A stretch of DNA of 26,579 nt from an uncultured Methanosarcinales archaeon (GTDB lineage Archaea; Nanobdellota; Nanobdellia; Woesearchaeales; WJKL01): assembly GCA_964464955.1 (NCBI GenBank), contig CAYXHN010000001.1, forward strand, positions 1 through 26,579, in the 5' to 3' direction. Of this stretch, positions 12,391-16,009 are shown piece by piece. The translations under genes and the position numbers were made by a program. The stretch's first letter is position 1. Each line of letters starts with the position of its first letter. The notes under the pieces are model-generated. The model saw only the letters and a list, made by a program, of their open reading frames with translations. It searched no databases and was not told the origin of the DNA.

Positions 12391-13479
12391 TTACATGTCT
12401 TTTAATCCTCCTTCGGTAACATTGAAACAGACTTCGCCGTCCCCTAAATTTGGAGCATCGATAAGCTTTGCAACTCTGCTTCCTTTCTTTCCCTTTCTCA
12501 GATAGATCCTGAATGTGGAAGCATGCGCAACTATGTGTCCTCCGATAGCTGCTGTAGGGTCTCCGAAGAACTGATCTGGCTTTGACATGACCTGGTTGGT
12601 TACGTAGACGCATACATTGTACTGGTCTGCAAGCTTAAGAAGAGTATGCATATGCTTGTTAAGTTTCTGCTGTCTTTCTGCCAATGTTCCCCTTCCTATA
12701 AACTCTGCTCTGAAATGCGCTGTCAGAGAGTCCACTATTATCAGCTTGATATTCTCTCCGTTCTTTATAAGCTCTTCAACCTTCTCTGTAAGAAGCATCT
12801 GGTGGTCTGAGTTGTATGCTCTGGCAACTTTTATAGACTTAAGCACTTCTTCTGGATTTAAGCCTGCACCTTTAGCCAGCTGGATTATCCTTTCTGGACG
12901 AAAGGTGTTTTCAGTGTCTATATAAACTGCTACCGGAGCCTTTGCACCCTTTATCTTCTGAAGGTTTGTTGCCAGGATATGCCCTACCTGGGTCTTTCCA
13001 GAGCCGAACTCTCCAAAGCATTCTGTTATGGCTCCTGTTTCAAAGCCACCCCCCATGAGTTCGTCAAATGTTTCTGAGGTTGTCTTTATCTTCTCTATTG
13101 TATCTCTTTTTTTCAGCAGGTCTGCTCCTGATTCAAAACCCATATCTAGTGAGTTTCTTGCCTCATTGATCATCTTTCTGGCTACTGCTTCTGTAACCCC
13201 TGCTGAATCTGTCATCTCTCCTGGGGAAGATACTGCTATCGACATCATATCTGAATAGCCGGCTTCTTTCAGCTTTTCAGCTGTAGCTGCTCCGACTCCA
13301 GGCAAGTCTGAGATTGACTTTTCTTTCTTTTCTTCTTGTTCTGAACTTTCTATTTTCGCTTCTTTTGTTTCTTCCATCTTTGAATCCTTTTTTGCTTTTG
13401 ATTTTTCCTTAGGAATATCATTCCCGTTTTCTTCTGTGCTCGGAAGCACTTCTTCTTCTGGTTTAGCTTTAGCTAACAT
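12391..13479 (-). CDS. radA: DNA repair and recombination protein RadA (no intein)
   Basis: HhH DLPGVGAATAEKL, GEFGSGKTQ, YIDTENTFRPER, DSLTAHFRAE and GGHIVAH. ATG 13479 follows an AGGTGA RBS (GTG 13488 is part of that RBS). Confidence 0.97.
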   Translation of the reverse strand: MLAKAKPEEEVLPSTEENGNDIPKEKSKAKKDSKMEETKEAKIESSEQEEKKEKSISDLPGVGAATAEKLKEAGYSDMMSIAVSSPGEMTDSAGVTEAVARKMINEARNSLDMGFESGADLLKKRDTIEKIKTTSETFDELMGGGFETGAITECFGEFGSGKTQVGHILATNLQKIKGAKAPVAVYIDTENTFRPERIIQLAKGAGLNPEEVLKSIKVARAYNSDHQMLLTEKVEELIKNGENIKLIIVDSLTAHFRAEFIGRGTLAERQQKLNKHMHTLLKLADQYNVCVYVTNQVMSKPDQFFGDPTAAIGGHIVAHASTFRIYLRKGKKGSRVAKLIDAPNLGDGEVCFNVTEGGLKDM

Positions 13480-13514
13480 AAATATCACCTTTGTATTTTA
13501 ATTTTACTAAAATT

Positions 13515-13540
13515 AAAGAAAAACGAAGCCTGAAGCTTCG
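13515..13540 (-). terminator. Hairpin plus U-tract after the small ssDNA-binding-like gene
   Basis: CGAAGC-TTCAG-GCTTCG followed by TTTTTCTTT on the minus strand. Confidence 0.5.
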
Positions 13541-13556
13541 AATTTCAATAGGAAGC

Positions 13557-13841
13557 TCACATTGCCGCAGCTTCTTGCTGTCCGATGTCTTTCAGCACAA
13601 TATACTCATAAGCTTTGTGCAATACAAGCGCGGCTTTTGGAAGATCATTTATCCGCATAGAATTTGTTGACTTCCATTCCCCGCTTTTATCGGTATACCT
13701 TCTCTGAAGGCTTATTGTTCTGAATTCAGTTTCCTGACCGTCTTTTGATTGGCCTTTGTTTTTCCACACAGTTGCCTGAATCACGCCTGTGCTGAACTTT
13801 TTTTCCGGCATTCCGCCGTTATTTGTGTTTTCTTGTGTCAT
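13557..13841 (-). CDS. Small putative ssDNA-binding protein (PC4/whirly-like beta-sheet family)
   Basis: PEKKFSTGVIQATVWKN...TISLQRRYTDKSGEWKSTNSMRINDLPKAALVLHKAYE pattern; perfect GGAGGTG RBS. Function is inferred. Confidence 0.6.
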   Translation of the reverse strand: MTQENTNNGGMPEKKFSTGVIQATVWKNKGQSKDGQETEFRTISLQRRYTDKSGEWKSTNSMRINDLPKAALVLHKAYEYIVLKDIGQQEAAAM

Positions 13842-13980
13842 TTACGACACCTCCATTGCTTTCGCATCTTGTTTCAAACCTCCCTGTTTGTGGGCTCTTG
13901 CTGCCTTAAACAGCAGCAAGGCCCCAGGAGGTGGAGTTGGCAGTTTTTCTGCCATTGAGCTTGAGTTTGGCCCAAGCATA
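13842..13980 (-). promoter_or_regulatory. GC-rich multi-hairpin 5' leader with anti-SD and decoy SD
   Basis: Hairpins at 13977-13959, 13954-13938, 13924-13892 and 13866-13857; anti-SD CACCUCC at 13933-13927; TATATAAA box at 14010-14003. Confidence 0.6.
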
Positions 13981-14019
13981 AATATATCTAAGTCAGGGTT
14001 CTTTATATATCTCACGCGC

Positions 14020-14106
14020 AGTTGAACAGTGGTCAGTGGTACCTTGATTTTAGAGTTAGAAAGGCTGTACTGCTTAAATTCTTAAGAATAAGAGTTGAAC
14101 AGTGGT
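14020..14106. repeat. 14-bp perfect direct repeat AGTTGAACAGTGGT, two copies
   Basis: Copies at 14020-14033 and 14093-14106, plus a partial CAGTGGT at 14034-14040. Confidence 0.8.
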
Positions 14107-14185
14107 ATTAAAGAATTTTGCAGAATCTGGTCTTAGGAATTTGGTTATAATGTTTTTTAGGGTCTGCTAGCACAGAAAAGAATGT

Positions 14186-14638
14186 TTAAACCAGGATAAC
14201 AACAATGATCGCGATAATGCCTGTCAGAACAACTGTTTCTGCGATTGTGCCTGTTTCTATCGGGCCTGAGAGATGCAGTTTTGTTATTGGGTGTAGGAAG
14301 TTTGTTCCTGCTTTTGTAAAACCATCTATTATCAGGTGAGAAGTGTAGCCTATGAACAATGCTAAGCCAAATGCTTTTCCCAATGTAAGATATAATATAG
14401 CTGAAAATCCGACGGCTAAGAAGATTGAATGGAATATTCCTCTGTGTTTTGTTATCAGCTGGAGAATCTTTGGAACTACAGGGATGTTCTTGCTCATCTT
14501 AGAGTCTGTATGATCTATGTCTGGAAGCAATGCCCCCAACAAAACAAGTCCGAAGAAAATTATCTTGTTTCCACCTATAAGAGGGAATGTAAGGATTCCT
14601 GCCAATATTCCAAATGTGAAATGTGTTTTTGCCAGCAT
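14186..14638 (-). CDS. Membrane-bound metal-dependent hydrolase (YdjM-like)
   Basis: MLAKTH, GALLPDIDH, HRGIFHS, GYTSHLIIDGFT and G-x-N-FLHP motifs. Confidence 0.88.
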   Translation of the reverse strand: MLAKTHFTFGILAGILTFPLIGGNKIIFFGLVLLGALLPDIDHTDSKMSKNIPVVPKILQLITKHRGIFHSIFLAVGFSAILYLTLGKAFGLALFIGYTSHLIIDGFTKAGTNFLHPITKLHLSGPIETGTIAETVVLTGIIAIIVVILV

Positions 14639-14959
14639 AATTATAAAATTGATTTTGAGGTATATTAAATTATTGATTTTGAGTTGATATCTTTTATTAT
14701 CCTCGTTGTATTATCAAATATTTTAGATCCAGATCTATAAGTCAATTGAAATTTTCTGTGATCATTCTTCAAAAAATAAGATTCGATCCTAACTTATAAC
14801 GCTCGCTTGCACTCGCTAACCCTTCCCCTAAAAAGATGTTAAGTTCTGGCTTCGCTTAAAGCAGAGGAAGACATTTGCAGAAGAAAGCAAAGCTTACTGC
14901 TGTTATAGATATTATCAAAGCCTATTTTACTTTTTCAAAGATTGAGAAATAAAGAATTA

Positions 14960-16009
14960 TTATTTAACTTCTTCTTCCTGTACATCTGTTTGGGTTTTTT
15001 CAGCTGAATCTGATTTTTCTTTAAGAGTTTTCATCTCTTCTTCAGGGTCAGGGTCTGTAAAGACTAATTGTGCTGTGAATTCCATCCGGTCAAACATATC
15101 GTTTCTTTTTGCCCTTCCAACTAGCTTGAGCTGGTTGCCTATAAGCTCTGTCTTCATGGGTTCAAATGACTGAGGATTGTCTTTATACTGGAGCATGTCT
15201 TCCTTGCTCTTGTTCAGCAATCTTTCTGCCTGATTCCTGAAGAATGTTGCTCTTATTGTCTCTGTTCCGTCATCCAAAACCGCATTCATGACATAAGAAT
15301 AATCTGGCTGGACTGCATTGTGTGCTGGGCAGACAAATGTATCTCCGTCAGGCCTTGCTCTTTTTCCGCACTGAGGGCATACTTCAAAGAACTTTGGCTC
15401 GAATGCCTGTACAATTGTGCCGAAAATCTCTATGTTCTGTTCATCTTGAGTAAGGTCTGCGATGCTTTTCCTCACAGCCTTTGGAAACTCATTTGATTCT
15501 TTTACATCTCCCACTGACTCTCCTTCTGGATTTATTATTAATTTTGAACGGTCATTAAGATGCACCTCTTTTCTTCCTTGATTTTCACGCACATATCCTC
15601 CAACTAGTTTTACTATATCTCCTTCGTTAAGCTTATTTATATTCTCTGCTTGTTCTCCCCACATTGTCAATCTTATAGTGCCGGTCTCATCTCCTATGAT
15701 CATATTTGCTACTTTTCCTTCTCGGTTTTCTGTCTTAAACTCCCTTAATTCAAATTTTCTTGTGACTTTTCCGACAACTTCAACATTTCTCATGCCTGCA
15801 AGGATGTTCTTTACCTGAAGCTTTCCCTGTGTCTGCTCCAAAAGCTTTACACCCATCTCATTGGCTACTATATGAGCTGCTCCTTCTTTTGAGATAAGGC
15901 CTGATAATTGCTTTAGCTTTTCATCTATCTTTGCATTTAGCTCTTCTTCAGAAATCCCTTTCTCTTTAGTTATCTTTTCTATTATCTGTGGTAATGGTAT
16001 CTTAAGCAT
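14960..16009 (-). CDS. rpa: Replication protein A (two OB folds plus Zn finger)
   Basis: GLISKEGAAHIVANEMG, GDETGTIRLTMW, CPQC-x13-CPAH Zn finger, and LDDGTETIRATFF. Confidence 0.92.
   Translation of the reverse strand: MLKIPLPQIIEKITKEKGISEEELNAKIDEKLKQLSGLISKEGAAHIVANEMGVKLLEQTQGKLQVKNILAGMRNVEVVGKVTRKFELREFKTENREGKVANMIIGDETGTIRLTMWGEQAENINKLNEGDIVKLVGGYVRENQGRKEVHLNDRSKLIINPEGESVGDVKESNEFPKAVRKSIADLTQDEQNIEIFGTIVQAFEPKFFEVCPQCGKRARPDGDTFVCPAHNAVQPDYSYVMNAVLDDGTETIRATFFRNQAERLLNKSKEDMLQYKDNPQSFEPMKTELIGNQLKLVGRAKRNDMFDRMEFTAQLVFTDPDPEEEMKTLKEKSDSAEKTQTDVQEEEVK

What the first reader, a model, noticed from the sequence alone, without database searches (positions are those of the whole stretch)
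13842..14010. Two-state, riboswitch-like translational leader upstream of the ssDNA-binding-like gene next to radA
Seen: a ~138-nt GC-rich leader with hairpins GCUUGGG/CUCAAGC, UGGCAG/CUGCCA, a 12-13 bp GGGC-CUUGCUGC/GCAGCAAG-A-GCCC stem and a UGC-GAAA-GCA GNRA loop. CACCUCC (13933-13927) is the perfect complement of the real SD GGAGGUG (13854-13848). It can instead pair, as ACCUCCUG, with a decoy CAGGGAGGU (13886-13878), and that decoy can alternatively be closed into a CAAAC/GUUUG hairpin. Mutually exclusive ON (anti-SD:decoy) and OFF (anti-SD:SD) folds are therefore possible. A TATATAAA at 14010-14003 puts the TSS near 13980, at the first hairpin. Established: T4 gp32 translationally autoregulates via its structured leader. 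Inference: autoregulation by the encoded nucleic-acid-binding protein, or a ligand/damage-responsive switch.
Basis: partly seen in the sequence, partly recalled or inferred. Interest (0 to 1): 0.76.

Follow-up and report, generated by a model that had tools for sequence, protein, structure and literature searches.

The report
Conserved ribosome-site-hiding leader RNA
This is a real, apparently undescribed folded RNA leader, kept by compensating mutations in well over a hundred tiny archaea (Woesearchaeota and relatives), that locks the ribosome-binding site of a small putative DNA-binding-protein gene next to radA into a short helix; what opens that helix is not known.

Summary
The leader folds far better than shuffled sequence (z -6.4). 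It is one member of a conserved RNA family not in Rfam 15.

The family fold is a three-way junction:
- P1: an anti-SD word, CUCC or CCUC, paired with the SD.
- P2: a helix of variable length.
- A near-invariant junction, UGAAAYAARA.
- P3: a 2-3 bp hairpin with a GNRA-like loop.
- Usually also a 5' hairpin (P0), and often a hairpin around the AUG (P4).

Covariation supports every helix in two independent sequence sets. The model matches 112 of 151 sampled genomes of the order, usually once per genome. It lies almost always directly upstream of one gene family, a 94-aa beta4-alpha protein that is probably a PC4-like ssDNA binder, in a conserved rpa-ydjM-X-radA cluster.

The "decoy" is simply the 3' strand of P2. 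The longer CACCUCC:SD pairing is specific to this lineage, and both states hide the SD.

My best reading, which is inferred, is a translational operator used for feedback by the gene's own product, as with T4 gp32. An unknown-ligand riboswitch remains a live rival. No transcript or binding data exist.

The parts
14023..14038 (-). Promoter-proximal DNA word CACTGACCACTGTTCA (a putative operator). Relatives have CACTGGACA or CACTGGACACTGGACA at the same place.
   Evidence: The word starts 20-22 nt before the TATA start in most related loci. The same arrangement occurs before two other genes of this genome, one of them MCM. The 16-mer is enriched in the order, with 80 sites against 0 for the reversed control.
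14003..14010 (-). TATA box ATATATAA. The predicted TSS is near 13980.
   Evidence: Read from the sequence. A TATA box at a comparable distance is seen in relatives. The TSS is inferred, not measured.
13959..13977 (-). 5'-terminal hairpin P0a (GCUUGGG/CUCAAGC). It is specific to this lineage.
   Evidence: Present in the MFE and in the congener L003. A similarly placed 5' hairpin occurs in a few same-family relatives (L019, L021, L024); most relatives lack it.
13938..13954 (-). Hairpin P0 (UGGCAG/CUGCCA), which abuts the anti-SD word.
   Evidence: Present in the MFE. A hairpin of at least 4 bp ending within 4 nt of the anti-SD occurs in 90 of 121 leaders, against 46 expected from shuffles, and its sequence varies between leaders.
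13933..13936 (-). P1 5' strand: the anti-SD word CUCC.
   Evidence: Pairs with GGAG at 13854-13851 with probability 0.99. It covaries with the SD word across relatives.
13878..13932 (-).
   Evidence: All 7 base pairs and all 4 P2b pairs show changes on both sides. The apical part ranges from a plain loop to long stems.
13867..13877 (-). Junction J2/3, UUGAAACAAGA. The family consensus is UGAAAYAARA, which is near-invariant and predicted single-stranded.
   Evidence: Column frequencies of alignment A4. Unpaired in the MFE.
13857..13866 (-). P3 hairpin UGC-GAAA-GCA.
   Evidence: The inner pairs swap G-C to C-G in 8-9 relatives. Loops are GAAA, GAAAA, GAAUA, GAUAA or GACAA. Three relatives carry large insertions inside the loop.
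13848..13856 (-). Junction J3/1 (AU) and the SD GGAGGUG. GGAG is the 3' strand of P1.
13835..13850 (-). P4: hairpin GUGUC/GACAC with the start codon (13841-13839) in its loop and 3' stem.
   Evidence: Present in the MFE. A comparable hairpin, built from other sequences, occurs in about 20 of 52 relatives.
13557..13841 (-). Gene for a 94-aa beta4-alpha protein, probably a PC4-like ssDNA/RNA binder. Many relatives have an acidic C-terminal tail.
13515..13540 (-). Terminator-like hairpin CGAAGC/GCUUCG followed by UUUUUCUUU, just after the stop codon.
   Evidence: It suggests the gene is transcribed on its own, ahead of radA (12391-13488).

Best explanation
Shown: window 13980-13835 (minus strand) is a member of a conserved family of structured 5' leaders.
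- A three-way junction joins three helices: P1 (a 4-bp helix between an anti-SD word and the Shine-Dalgarno sequence), P2 (variable length) and P3 (a short hairpin with a GNRA-like loop).
- The junction itself, UGAAAYAARA, is almost invariant.
- A 5' hairpin (P0) and often a start-codon hairpin (P4) flank P1.

Inferred:
- The folded leader keeps the ribosome off the SD and AUG, so it acts as a translational operator.
- Because the leader is tied almost exclusively to one gene family, the effector is most likely that gene's own product. That product is a small, dimeric, probably single-strand nucleic-acid-binding protein encoded in a recombination gene cluster.
- When the protein is in excess over its normal ssDNA substrate, it would bind the purine-rich junction and fold and hold P1 shut. 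When ssDNA accumulates, the protein would be titrated away and translation would rise. This is the logic of T4 gp32.
- Transcription of the same gene appears to be controlled separately, through an upstream DNA word shared with MCM and other genes.
For: Structure:
- z -6.43 for this copy.
- Genome set (alignment A3, 52 distinct rows): all 18 modelled pairs change on both sides and 87% of cells are paired. The covariation score is 0.42, against 0.18 shuffled and at most 0.13 with partners slid.
- Independent metagenome set (A6, 76 distinct rows): 92% of cells are paired. The score is 0.47, against 0.15 shuffled and at most 0.12 slid.

SD pairing:
- The anti-SD word CUCC goes with GGAG in 18 of 18 cases, and CCUC goes with GAGG-only SDs in 11 of 11 (genomes).
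- In the metagenome set the counts are 8 of 8 and 31 of 33.
- Thermodynamics alone pairs the SD bases in 91% of 117 leaders. The P1 region is the main partner in 93 of 117.

Spread:
- 112 of 151 sampled genomes of the order match, mostly with one copy.
- 92 of 151 genomes match in a phylum sample, including 9 from other orders.
- Only one credible copy exists in this genome.

Gene specificity:
- Of 80 metagenome loci with the exact core, 72 have the PC4-like ORF just downstream, 4 are cut by a contig end, 3 are chance matches and 1 (L149) has no callable ORF.
- Extra copies within a genome mostly precede paralogues.

Protein:
- Predicted beta4-alpha fold at pLDDT 85.
- Relatives in AFDB at TM 0.78-0.81 carry the automatic name 'PC4 C-terminal domain-containing protein'.
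- The homodimer model scores 0.58, with a best control of 0.00. That mark was reached by 20 of 30 proteins solved as pairs and by 1 of 23 solved as single chains.
- radA lies directly downstream in 51 of 53 loci.

Precedents: gp32 autogenous repression (PMC535899, PMC3014915) and RNA binding by proteins of PC4-like fold (PMC7549692).
Against: - There is no transcript, TSS, binding or reporter evidence of any kind.
- The protein's nucleic-acid binding is inferred. Pfam and NCBIfam give no hit, and matches to solved PC4-family structures are weak (Pur-alpha Z 3.0-3.6).
- A few leader copies precede other genes: a 59-aa ORF, a tyrosine integrase, a DUF1016-like ORF and a Lon-like ORF. This fits a shared trans factor but not strict self-control.
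- Some genomes have the protein but no detectable leader, for example G026 and G035, which are 99-100% complete.
- A three-way junction with an invariant junction and the SD in P1 is also typical riboswitch anatomy.
Confidence: 0.45

Rival explanations
1. A riboswitch for an unknown small ligand (metabolite, ion or nucleotide signal). The ligand would bind in the conserved three-way junction and stabilise or destabilise P1, so controlling access to the SD.
For: - The anatomy matches: a covarying three-way junction, a near-invariant junction sequence and a P1 that contains the SD.
- It is conserved over more than 100 families.
- Occasional copies lie before unrelated genes.
Against: - It is tied almost wholly to one gene family that has no obvious metabolic or transport role. 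Riboswitch classes usually control several genes of one pathway.
- There is usually one copy per genome.
- P2 and P3 tolerate large insertions and the aptamer-like core is very small.
- No Rfam riboswitch model matches, even at E up to 10.
Confidence: 0.25
2. A constitutive structural leader with no dedicated effector. It would set a low, fixed translation rate, protect the 5' end from decay, or act as a simple RNA thermometer through the short P1 and P4 helices.
For: - P1 is only 4 bp and P4 is optional.
- The 5'-terminal hairpin P0 is common.
Against: An 11-nt single-stranded junction and the P3 loop are kept almost unchanged across more than 100 families. A mere stability element or thermometer does not need this. 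The element is also restricted to one gene family.
Confidence: 0.17
3. CACCUCC would toggle between the SD (OFF) and the decoy CAGGGAGGU (ON), with the decoy alternatively closed by CAAAC/GUUUG.
For: - Both folds exist in this window, 4.2 kcal/mol apart.
- Their order flips when the AUG hairpin is left out.
- The congener L003, and L026 and L039, show the same competition.
Against: - The 'ON' fold still pairs the SD with the adjacent CUCC.
- The alternative partner dominates in only 6 of 117 leaders.
- In many relatives P2 is not SD-like, for example CGACCC/GGGUUG and CACACG/CGUGUG.
- P2 itself covaries as a helix.
Confidence: 0.05
4. The conserved element is read as something other than a cis-acting RNA fold: a short upstream ORF or N-terminal extension, a DNA-level site, or a docking site for a trans-acting anti-SD small RNA.
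For: - This window has two tiny uORFs that end at the main AUG (13867-13838 and 13856-13842).
- An ORF of 57 codons covers the leader.
- Earlier notes of this scan (unchecked) describe anti-SD small RNAs in Woesearchaeota.
Against: - 23 of 39 leaders have stops in all three frames, and leader lengths are spread evenly over the three residues mod 3.
- The upstream AUG is absent in 17 of 46 leaders, where P3 starts with something other than UGC.
- Compensatory changes and frequent G-U pairs point to an RNA helix on this strand.
- A trans sRNA is neither needed nor excluded.
Confidence: 0.05

Closest known systems
Translational operator of bacteriophage T4 gene 32 (gp32 autogenous repression; PMC535899, PMC3014915)
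   Same: - A single-strand-binding protein of replication and recombination would control its own mRNA.
- A folded 5' element lies next to an A-rich single-stranded tract that reaches the ribosome-binding site.
- The predicted logic is titration by ssDNA.
   Different: - The domain of life and the protein fold differ. gp32 is an OB-fold protein; this one is beta4-alpha.
- The gp32 operator is a pseudoknot plus an unstructured tract. Here the SD sits inside a helix of a three-way junction.
- Binding is not shown here.
Archaeal L7Ae 5'-leader k-turn (PMC5539422, PMC6298567)
   Same: An archaeal RNA-binding protein whose own mRNA leader carries a small structured motif close to the SD, used for feedback on translation.
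   Different: By inspection I find no k-turn signature (a 3-nt bulge followed by tandem G-A pairs across two strands). The regulated protein and the motif are unrelated. The L7Ae leader is described as unfolded without the protein, whereas this one is predicted to be stably folded.
MS2/PP7 coat-protein operator hairpins. These coat proteins are grouped with PC4-like folds in PMC7549692.
   Same: A small beta-sheet dimer that binds a specific RNA hairpin carrying the translation start region of a gene and represses it.
   Different: The coat proteins repress the replicase gene, not their own. The operator is a single hairpin. No homology is claimed.
Translational riboswitches with the SD in the closing helix of a three-way junction (for example the purine class; from general knowledge)
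   Same: A three-way junction, conserved junction nucleotides, a variable peripheral helix, and a P1 that overlaps the ribosome-binding site.
   Different: - No known ligand.
- No match to any Rfam model.
- One gene family instead of a pathway.
- P3 is only 2-3 bp.
SD-hiding GC-rich hairpin leaders on Woesearchaeota pyrimidine genes
   Same: The same group of archaea and the same basic device, an anti-SD paired with the SD in the leader.
   Different: That element is described as a simple hairpin in six genomes. This one is a multi-helix junction with an invariant core in more than 100 genomes and before a different gene.

Membership tests
Any Rfam 15 family | Score at or above the family's gathering threshold | tested here: not met
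   There are no matches in the whole window at gathering scores. In 13400-14300 at E up to 10 there is only noise, with the best at 20.9 bits against a gathering score of 80.
Riboswitch (generic) | Conserved structured sensor domain supported by covariation | tested here: met
   In sets A3 and A6 all four helices have pairs with changes on both sides; in the subset A4 14 of 18 pairs do. Controls by shuffling and by sliding the partners score far lower.
Riboswitch (generic) | Expression platform that overlaps the SD or a terminator | tested here: met
   The 3' strand of P1 is the SD.
Riboswitch (generic) | Found before several genes of one pathway or transporter set | tested here: not met
   72 of the roughly 73 usable metagenome instances precede one protein family. 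There is usually one copy per genome.
Riboswitch (generic) | Direct, specific binding of a small ligand | not testable with these tools
   This needs in-line probing or ITC.
Autogenous translational operator of an ss-nucleic-acid-binding protein (gp32 type) | Structured element in the gene's own leader that reaches the ribosome-binding site | tested here: met
Autogenous translational operator of an ss-nucleic-acid-binding protein (gp32 type) | The element travels with the gene, including its paralogues | tested here: met
   There are a few exceptions and some genomes have the gene without the leader.
Autogenous translational operator of an ss-nucleic-acid-binding protein (gp32 type) | The product binds single-stranded nucleic acid | tested here: inconclusive
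   - The topology is beta4-alpha.
- AFDB relatives are automatically named PC4 C-terminal domain.
- The gene lies in an rpa-radA cluster.
- There is no HMM hit, and matches to solved structures are weak.
Autogenous translational operator of an ss-nucleic-acid-binding protein (gp32 type) | The protein binds its own mRNA and represses translation | not testable with these tools
   This needs EMSA, toeprinting or a reporter assay.
PC4-like / Whirly / Pur-alpha superfamily (the protein) | Match to Pfam PC4 or related HMMs | tested here: not met
   No Pfam family at E up to 0.01 for this protein. None of 51 relatives matches a PC4 model at E up to 1.
PC4-like / Whirly / Pur-alpha superfamily (the protein) | Four antiparallel strands followed by a helix | tested here: met
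   The AF2 model has pLDDT 85.5, with strands 12-18, 21-31, 37-50 and 56-59 and a helix at 64-93.
PC4-like / Whirly / Pur-alpha superfamily (the protein) | Homodimer through the sheet edge and the helix | tested here: met
   The predicted homodimer scores 0.58, with a best control of 0.00. That mark was reached by 20 of 30 proteins solved as pairs and by 1 of 23 solved as single chains. The interface covers residues 40-45, 60-68 and 70-82. This is a prediction only.
PC4-like / Whirly / Pur-alpha superfamily (the protein) | Clear structural match to a solved member | tested here: inconclusive
   - Pur-alpha: Foldseek E 0.27; Z 3.6 and Z 3.0-3.2.
- WHY1: Z 2.5.
- The best hits overall are YbaB-like proteins at Z 5.3-6.0.
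- None of these stands out from the background.
k-turn leader (L7Ae type) | Three-nucleotide bulge followed by tandem sheared G-A pairs between two helices | tested here: not met
   Inspection of the consensus only. The strand opposite the junction GA carries CUCC-A and no GA. No k-turn-containing Rfam model matches.

The most novel reading that the evidence does not exclude
The leader is a new riboswitch class native to DPANN archaea. Its invariant junction would sense a small molecule tied to DNA metabolism or stress, such as a nucleotide, a second messenger or an ion. It would gate translation of a recombination-associated ssDNA-binding protein. That would make it one of very few archaea-specific riboswitches and the first linked to the recombination machinery.
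Probability: 0.2. Interest if true: 0.85.

Novelty: new member of a known kind. Interest (0 to 1): 0.62.

Why it matters
Structured cis-regulatory RNAs are well catalogued in bacteria but scarce in archaea, and essentially unknown in the uncultured, genome-reduced DPANN lineages. Here there is a compact element of 55-110 nt with strong covariation, found in most sampled Woesearchaeales. It sits in front of a gene embedded in the RPA-RadA cluster.

What it offers:
- A concrete, cloneable object for asking how these organisms regulate translation.
- A functional handle on a large family of 'hypothetical' proteins (3895 clusters at 50% identity).
- Together with the upstream DNA word shared with MCM, a first sketch of a replication/repair control circuit in this group.

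If the effector is the protein, it would be a gp32-type feedback loop in archaea. If it is a ligand, it would be a new riboswitch class.

Tried and rejected
- Rfam, at gathering scores and at E up to 10: no family matched.
- Public RNA runs: none holds the stretch. One DNA run (a microbial mat metagenome) holds part of it, so the strand, TSS and expression could not be checked.
- Viral contigs: no exact match to the conserved core.
- Naming the protein by sequence:
  - Pfam, NCBIfam and a PDB profile search gave nothing usable.
  - Sources call every relative 'hypothetical'.
  - The Atlas gave only unnamed clusters.
- Naming the protein by solved structures: Foldseek on the PDB, VIA-align wide and a second look gave only weak, non-distinctive matches. 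The Swiss-Prot AFDB library was also weak.
- MAFFT alignment of short-P2 leaders (A1) was not structure-aware and was dropped as a seed.
- Coding reading of the leader (uORF or N-terminal extension): rejected on stop codons, length classes and the non-conserved upstream AUG.
- k-turn reading: rejected by inspection only.
- A GNRA loop docking into the P2 internal loop (the CAUAAUUAAGG side resembles, but does not match, the 11-nt receptor): considered but left open. Relatives with a plain P2 hairpin keep the loop.
- The two weak model hits in low-GC DNA, G000:C50:1474-1533 and L065, have no SD or ORF behind them and were treated as chance.

Full report
**What is there**

On the minus strand, a 285-nt gene (13841-13557, 94 aa) follows a 138-nt untranslated stretch. 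That stretch begins about 25 nt after a TATA box at 14010-14003.

The 156 nt from 13985 to 13830 fold to -64.3 kcal/mol. Two hundred dinucleotide-preserving shuffles give -41.0 +/- 3.6 (z -6.43). Rfam 15 has no match in the window at gathering scores, and only noise around the site at E up to 10.

**Context**

- The window comes from a 1.09-Mb, 89%-complete archaeal genome. The titles of related records place it in Woesearchaeota/Nanoarchaeota.
- Downstream lies radA (Rad51 Pfam domain, 1.9e-82). Upstream lie a YdjM-family membrane protein and an RPA-like OB-fold protein.
- The order rpa-ydjM-X-radA is old: radA follows the small gene directly in 51 of 53 related loci.
- A hairpin plus a U-run sits just after the small gene's stop codon (13540-13515). 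The gene is therefore probably transcribed alone.

**The leader is a conserved RNA family**

The 94-aa protein was found in 37 of 41 related genomes, spread over about 30 families. Reading the upstream regions side by side showed one plan in nearly all of them:

- a hairpin of variable sequence (P0);
- then CUCC or CCUC;
- then a helix of variable sequence and length (P2);
- then UGAAAYAARA;
- then a short hairpin such as GCGAAAGC or CCGAAAGG (P3);
- then AA(N), the SD, and the AUG.

I built a covariance model from ten of these leaders (A2, R1). It found exactly one strong hit in front of the gene in 50 of 52 sources searched, the window included. L022 had no hit and L031 only a marginal one at E 0.11, which the rebuilt model R2 later scored at 1.5e-4. 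A rebuilt model (R2, from 47 sequences) gave these results:

- 112 of 151 genomes sampled across the order, mostly one copy each;
- 92 of 151 genomes in a phylum-wide sample, including nine from other orders of the same class;
- one credible copy in this genome.

**Covariation**

| Set | Distinct rows | Cells paired | Pairs with changes on both sides | Covariation score | Shuffled | Partners slid 1-3 columns |
|---|---|---|---|---|---|---|
| Genomes (A3) | 52 | 87% | 18 of 18 | 0.42 | 0.18 | 0.08-0.13 |
| Metagenomes (A6) | 76 | 92% | 17 of 18 | 0.47 | 0.15 | at most 0.12 |

- The subset A4 behaves like A3.
- The metagenome loci were fetched only by an exact match to the junction-plus-P3 core. 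P1 and P2 were therefore not selected for.
- Both alignments were fitted to the model, which leans towards the structure. The slid controls and the raw-sequence test below are free of that bias.
- Many cells are G-U pairs. On the other strand these would be C-A mismatches, so the RNA is read from the gene's strand.

**The SD is in a helix**

Without any alignment, the 4-nt word before P2 predicts the SD type:

| Set | CUCC with an SD containing GGAG | CCUC with an SD that has only GAGG |
|---|---|---|
| Genomes | 18 of 18 | 11 of 11 |
| Metagenomes | 8 of 8 | 31 of 33 |

Relatedness inflates any p-value, so I give the counts only.

Energy folding alone pairs the SD bases in 91% of 117 distinct leaders. 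The P1 region is the main partner in 93 of these, the P2 5' strand in 6, and the SD is mainly unpaired in 14.

**Accessory parts**

- A hairpin of at least 4 bp ending within 4 nt of the anti-SD word occurs in 90 of 121 leaders, against 46 expected from shuffles.
- A hairpin enclosing the AUG occurs in about 20 of 52 leaders and is built from different sequences.
- The P3 loops are GAAA (21), GAAAA (13) and GAAUA, GAUAA, GACAA and similar. Only the two inner P3 pairs are reliably Watson-Crick.
- Three relatives carry 40-60-nt insertions inside the P3 loop.

In the full-length context the family fold is the MFE at -64.3. It consists of P1 CUCC:GGAG, an intact P2 and P4. An SD-free fold is 10.7 kcal/mol worse.

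Without the AUG hairpin the alternative fold wins. The competition is therefore real in this lineage (window, L003, L026, L039). Three things count against it as the mechanism:

- Both folds bury the SD.
- The 'decoy' is the 3' strand of a covarying helix.
- Many relatives have a P2 with no SD-like sequence at all.

The switch is therefore a local by-product of a pyrimidine-rich P2 strand lying next to the true anti-SD word.

**Not a coding element**

- 23 of 39 leaders have stops in all three frames.
- Leader lengths fall evenly into the three classes mod 3.
- The AUG formed by A plus the UGC of P3 is missing in 17 of 46 leaders.

**Which gene, and how exclusively**

Of 80 metagenome loci with the exact core:

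- 72 have the same protein family just downstream (one uses a GUG start);
- 4 are cut by the contig end;
- 3 are chance matches without an SD;
- 1 (L149) has a good model hit but no ORF I could call.

Second copies within a genome mostly precede paralogues. The exceptions are few:

- a 59-aa ORF in tandem with the normal gene (L058);
- a reduced copy before a tyrosine integrase (L069);
- a copy before a DUF1016-like ORF that also carries the upstream DNA word (L071);
- a weak copy before a Lon-like ORF (L073).

Some complete genomes have the protein but no detectable leader (G026, G035).

**The protein**

- There is no Pfam or NCBIfam match, and all relatives are named 'hypothetical'.
- The family is large: 3895 representatives at E up to 0.001.
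- The AF2 model (pLDDT 85.5) has four strands and a long helix.
- In the AlphaFold cluster library, relatives at 30-53% identity and TM 0.78-0.81 carry the automatic name 'Transcriptional coactivator p15 (PC4) C-terminal domain-containing protein'.
- Matches to solved structures are weak and not distinctive.
- A homodimer model scores 0.58 with a best control of 0.00. That mark was reached by 20 of 30 proteins solved as pairs and by 1 of 23 solved as single chains.
- Many relatives end in an acidic tail.

I therefore call it 'probably PC4-like'. Members of that fold class bind ssDNA and RNA, and the T5 phage member is linked to recombination-dependent replication (PMC7549692, PMC3575825).

**Mechanism**

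Shown: a conserved fold that places the SD in a short helix between two junctions.

Inferred: it limits translation initiation, and a factor recognises the invariant junction. I think the gene's own product is the most likely effector (0.45), for three reasons:

- The leader is tied to one gene family.
- That gene already shares a transcriptional signal with other genes, but only it carries the leader.
- The product is plausibly a single-strand binder.

This gives gp32-like feedback (PMC535899, PMC3014915). An unknown-ligand riboswitch (0.25) and an effector-less structural leader (0.17) are the main rivals.

**Novelty**

I found no description of this element in Rfam or in the paper library. 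The scan's own index has no look-alike by sequence. Earlier notes of this scan on other Woesearchaeota DNA describe a different SD-hiding leader and anti-SD small RNAs, but not this element.

It is a new family within a known kind of element: a structured, SD-sequestering translational leader.

Noticed in passing
window 14023-14038 (-); G000:C19:6857 (-); G000:C102:842 (+); loci L198-L227: A DNA word lies just upstream of the TATA box of this gene. It reads CACTGACCACTGTTCA here and CACTGGACA or CACTGGACACTGGACA in relatives, starting 20-22 nt before the TATA start. The same arrangement precedes MCM and a small ...QFSDQWF protein in this genome. The exact 16-mer occurs 80 times in 31 of 121 genomes of the order and never in the reversed control. 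In 30 loci the downstream ORFs include the PC4-like gene (6), MCM, DUF1016-like, KilA-N/Bro-N-like, a DNA methylase and small acidic ...EEGFMxGYxxA proteins (named by eye). This looks like an operator of a replication/repair/mobile-element regulon.
   Followed up: partly
window 12391-16009 (-) and loci L003-L055: The gene order RPA-like, YdjM-like, small beta4-alpha protein, RadA is conserved. radA lies directly downstream in 51 of 53 loci, ydjM upstream in 38 and rpa in 29, within the flanks held.
   Followed up: yes
window 13838-13867 and 13842-13856 (-): Two tiny upstream ORFs lie in this leader. The first is 9 codons long, starts at the A+UGC of P3, and has a UGA stop that overlaps the main AUG (AUGA). 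The second is a 4-codon AUG-GAG-GUG-UCG-UAA that ends right against the main AUG. They are not conserved in the family.
   Followed up: partly
L058:287-348, L069:290-336, L071:735-803 (-), L073:212-309, L095:3521-3585: Leader copies occur in front of genes other than the PC4-like one: a 59-aa ORF placed in tandem, a tyrosine integrase (copy without P2), a DUF1016-like 90-aa ORF, a Lon-like ORF and a 348-aa Cys-rich ORF. The promoter-plus-leader cassette may be captured by mobile or accessory genes.
   Followed up: partly
L152:2070-2199: Two leader-like units lie head to tail (2070-2136 and 2139-2199) in front of one PC4-like gene in a low-GC metagenome contig.
   Followed up: no
L022 (G026:C1:763209 region): In a complete genome, one copy of the protein has only a reduced leader: UCCUC, one A-rich hairpin, then GGAGGA. 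There is no junction or P3 and no model hit.
   Followed up: no
L095, L117, L146, L152: A second, more divergent branch of the protein family (PIKKWRSG...IWxN...FKT.SL.RS.KKKGEDIWRSE) in low-GC contigs carries the same leader core.
   Followed up: no
window 13842-14015 (-): A mechanical 57-codon GTG ORF covers the whole leader and ends just before the real start codon. It is an artefact of the GC-rich structured region, not a gene.
   Followed up: yes
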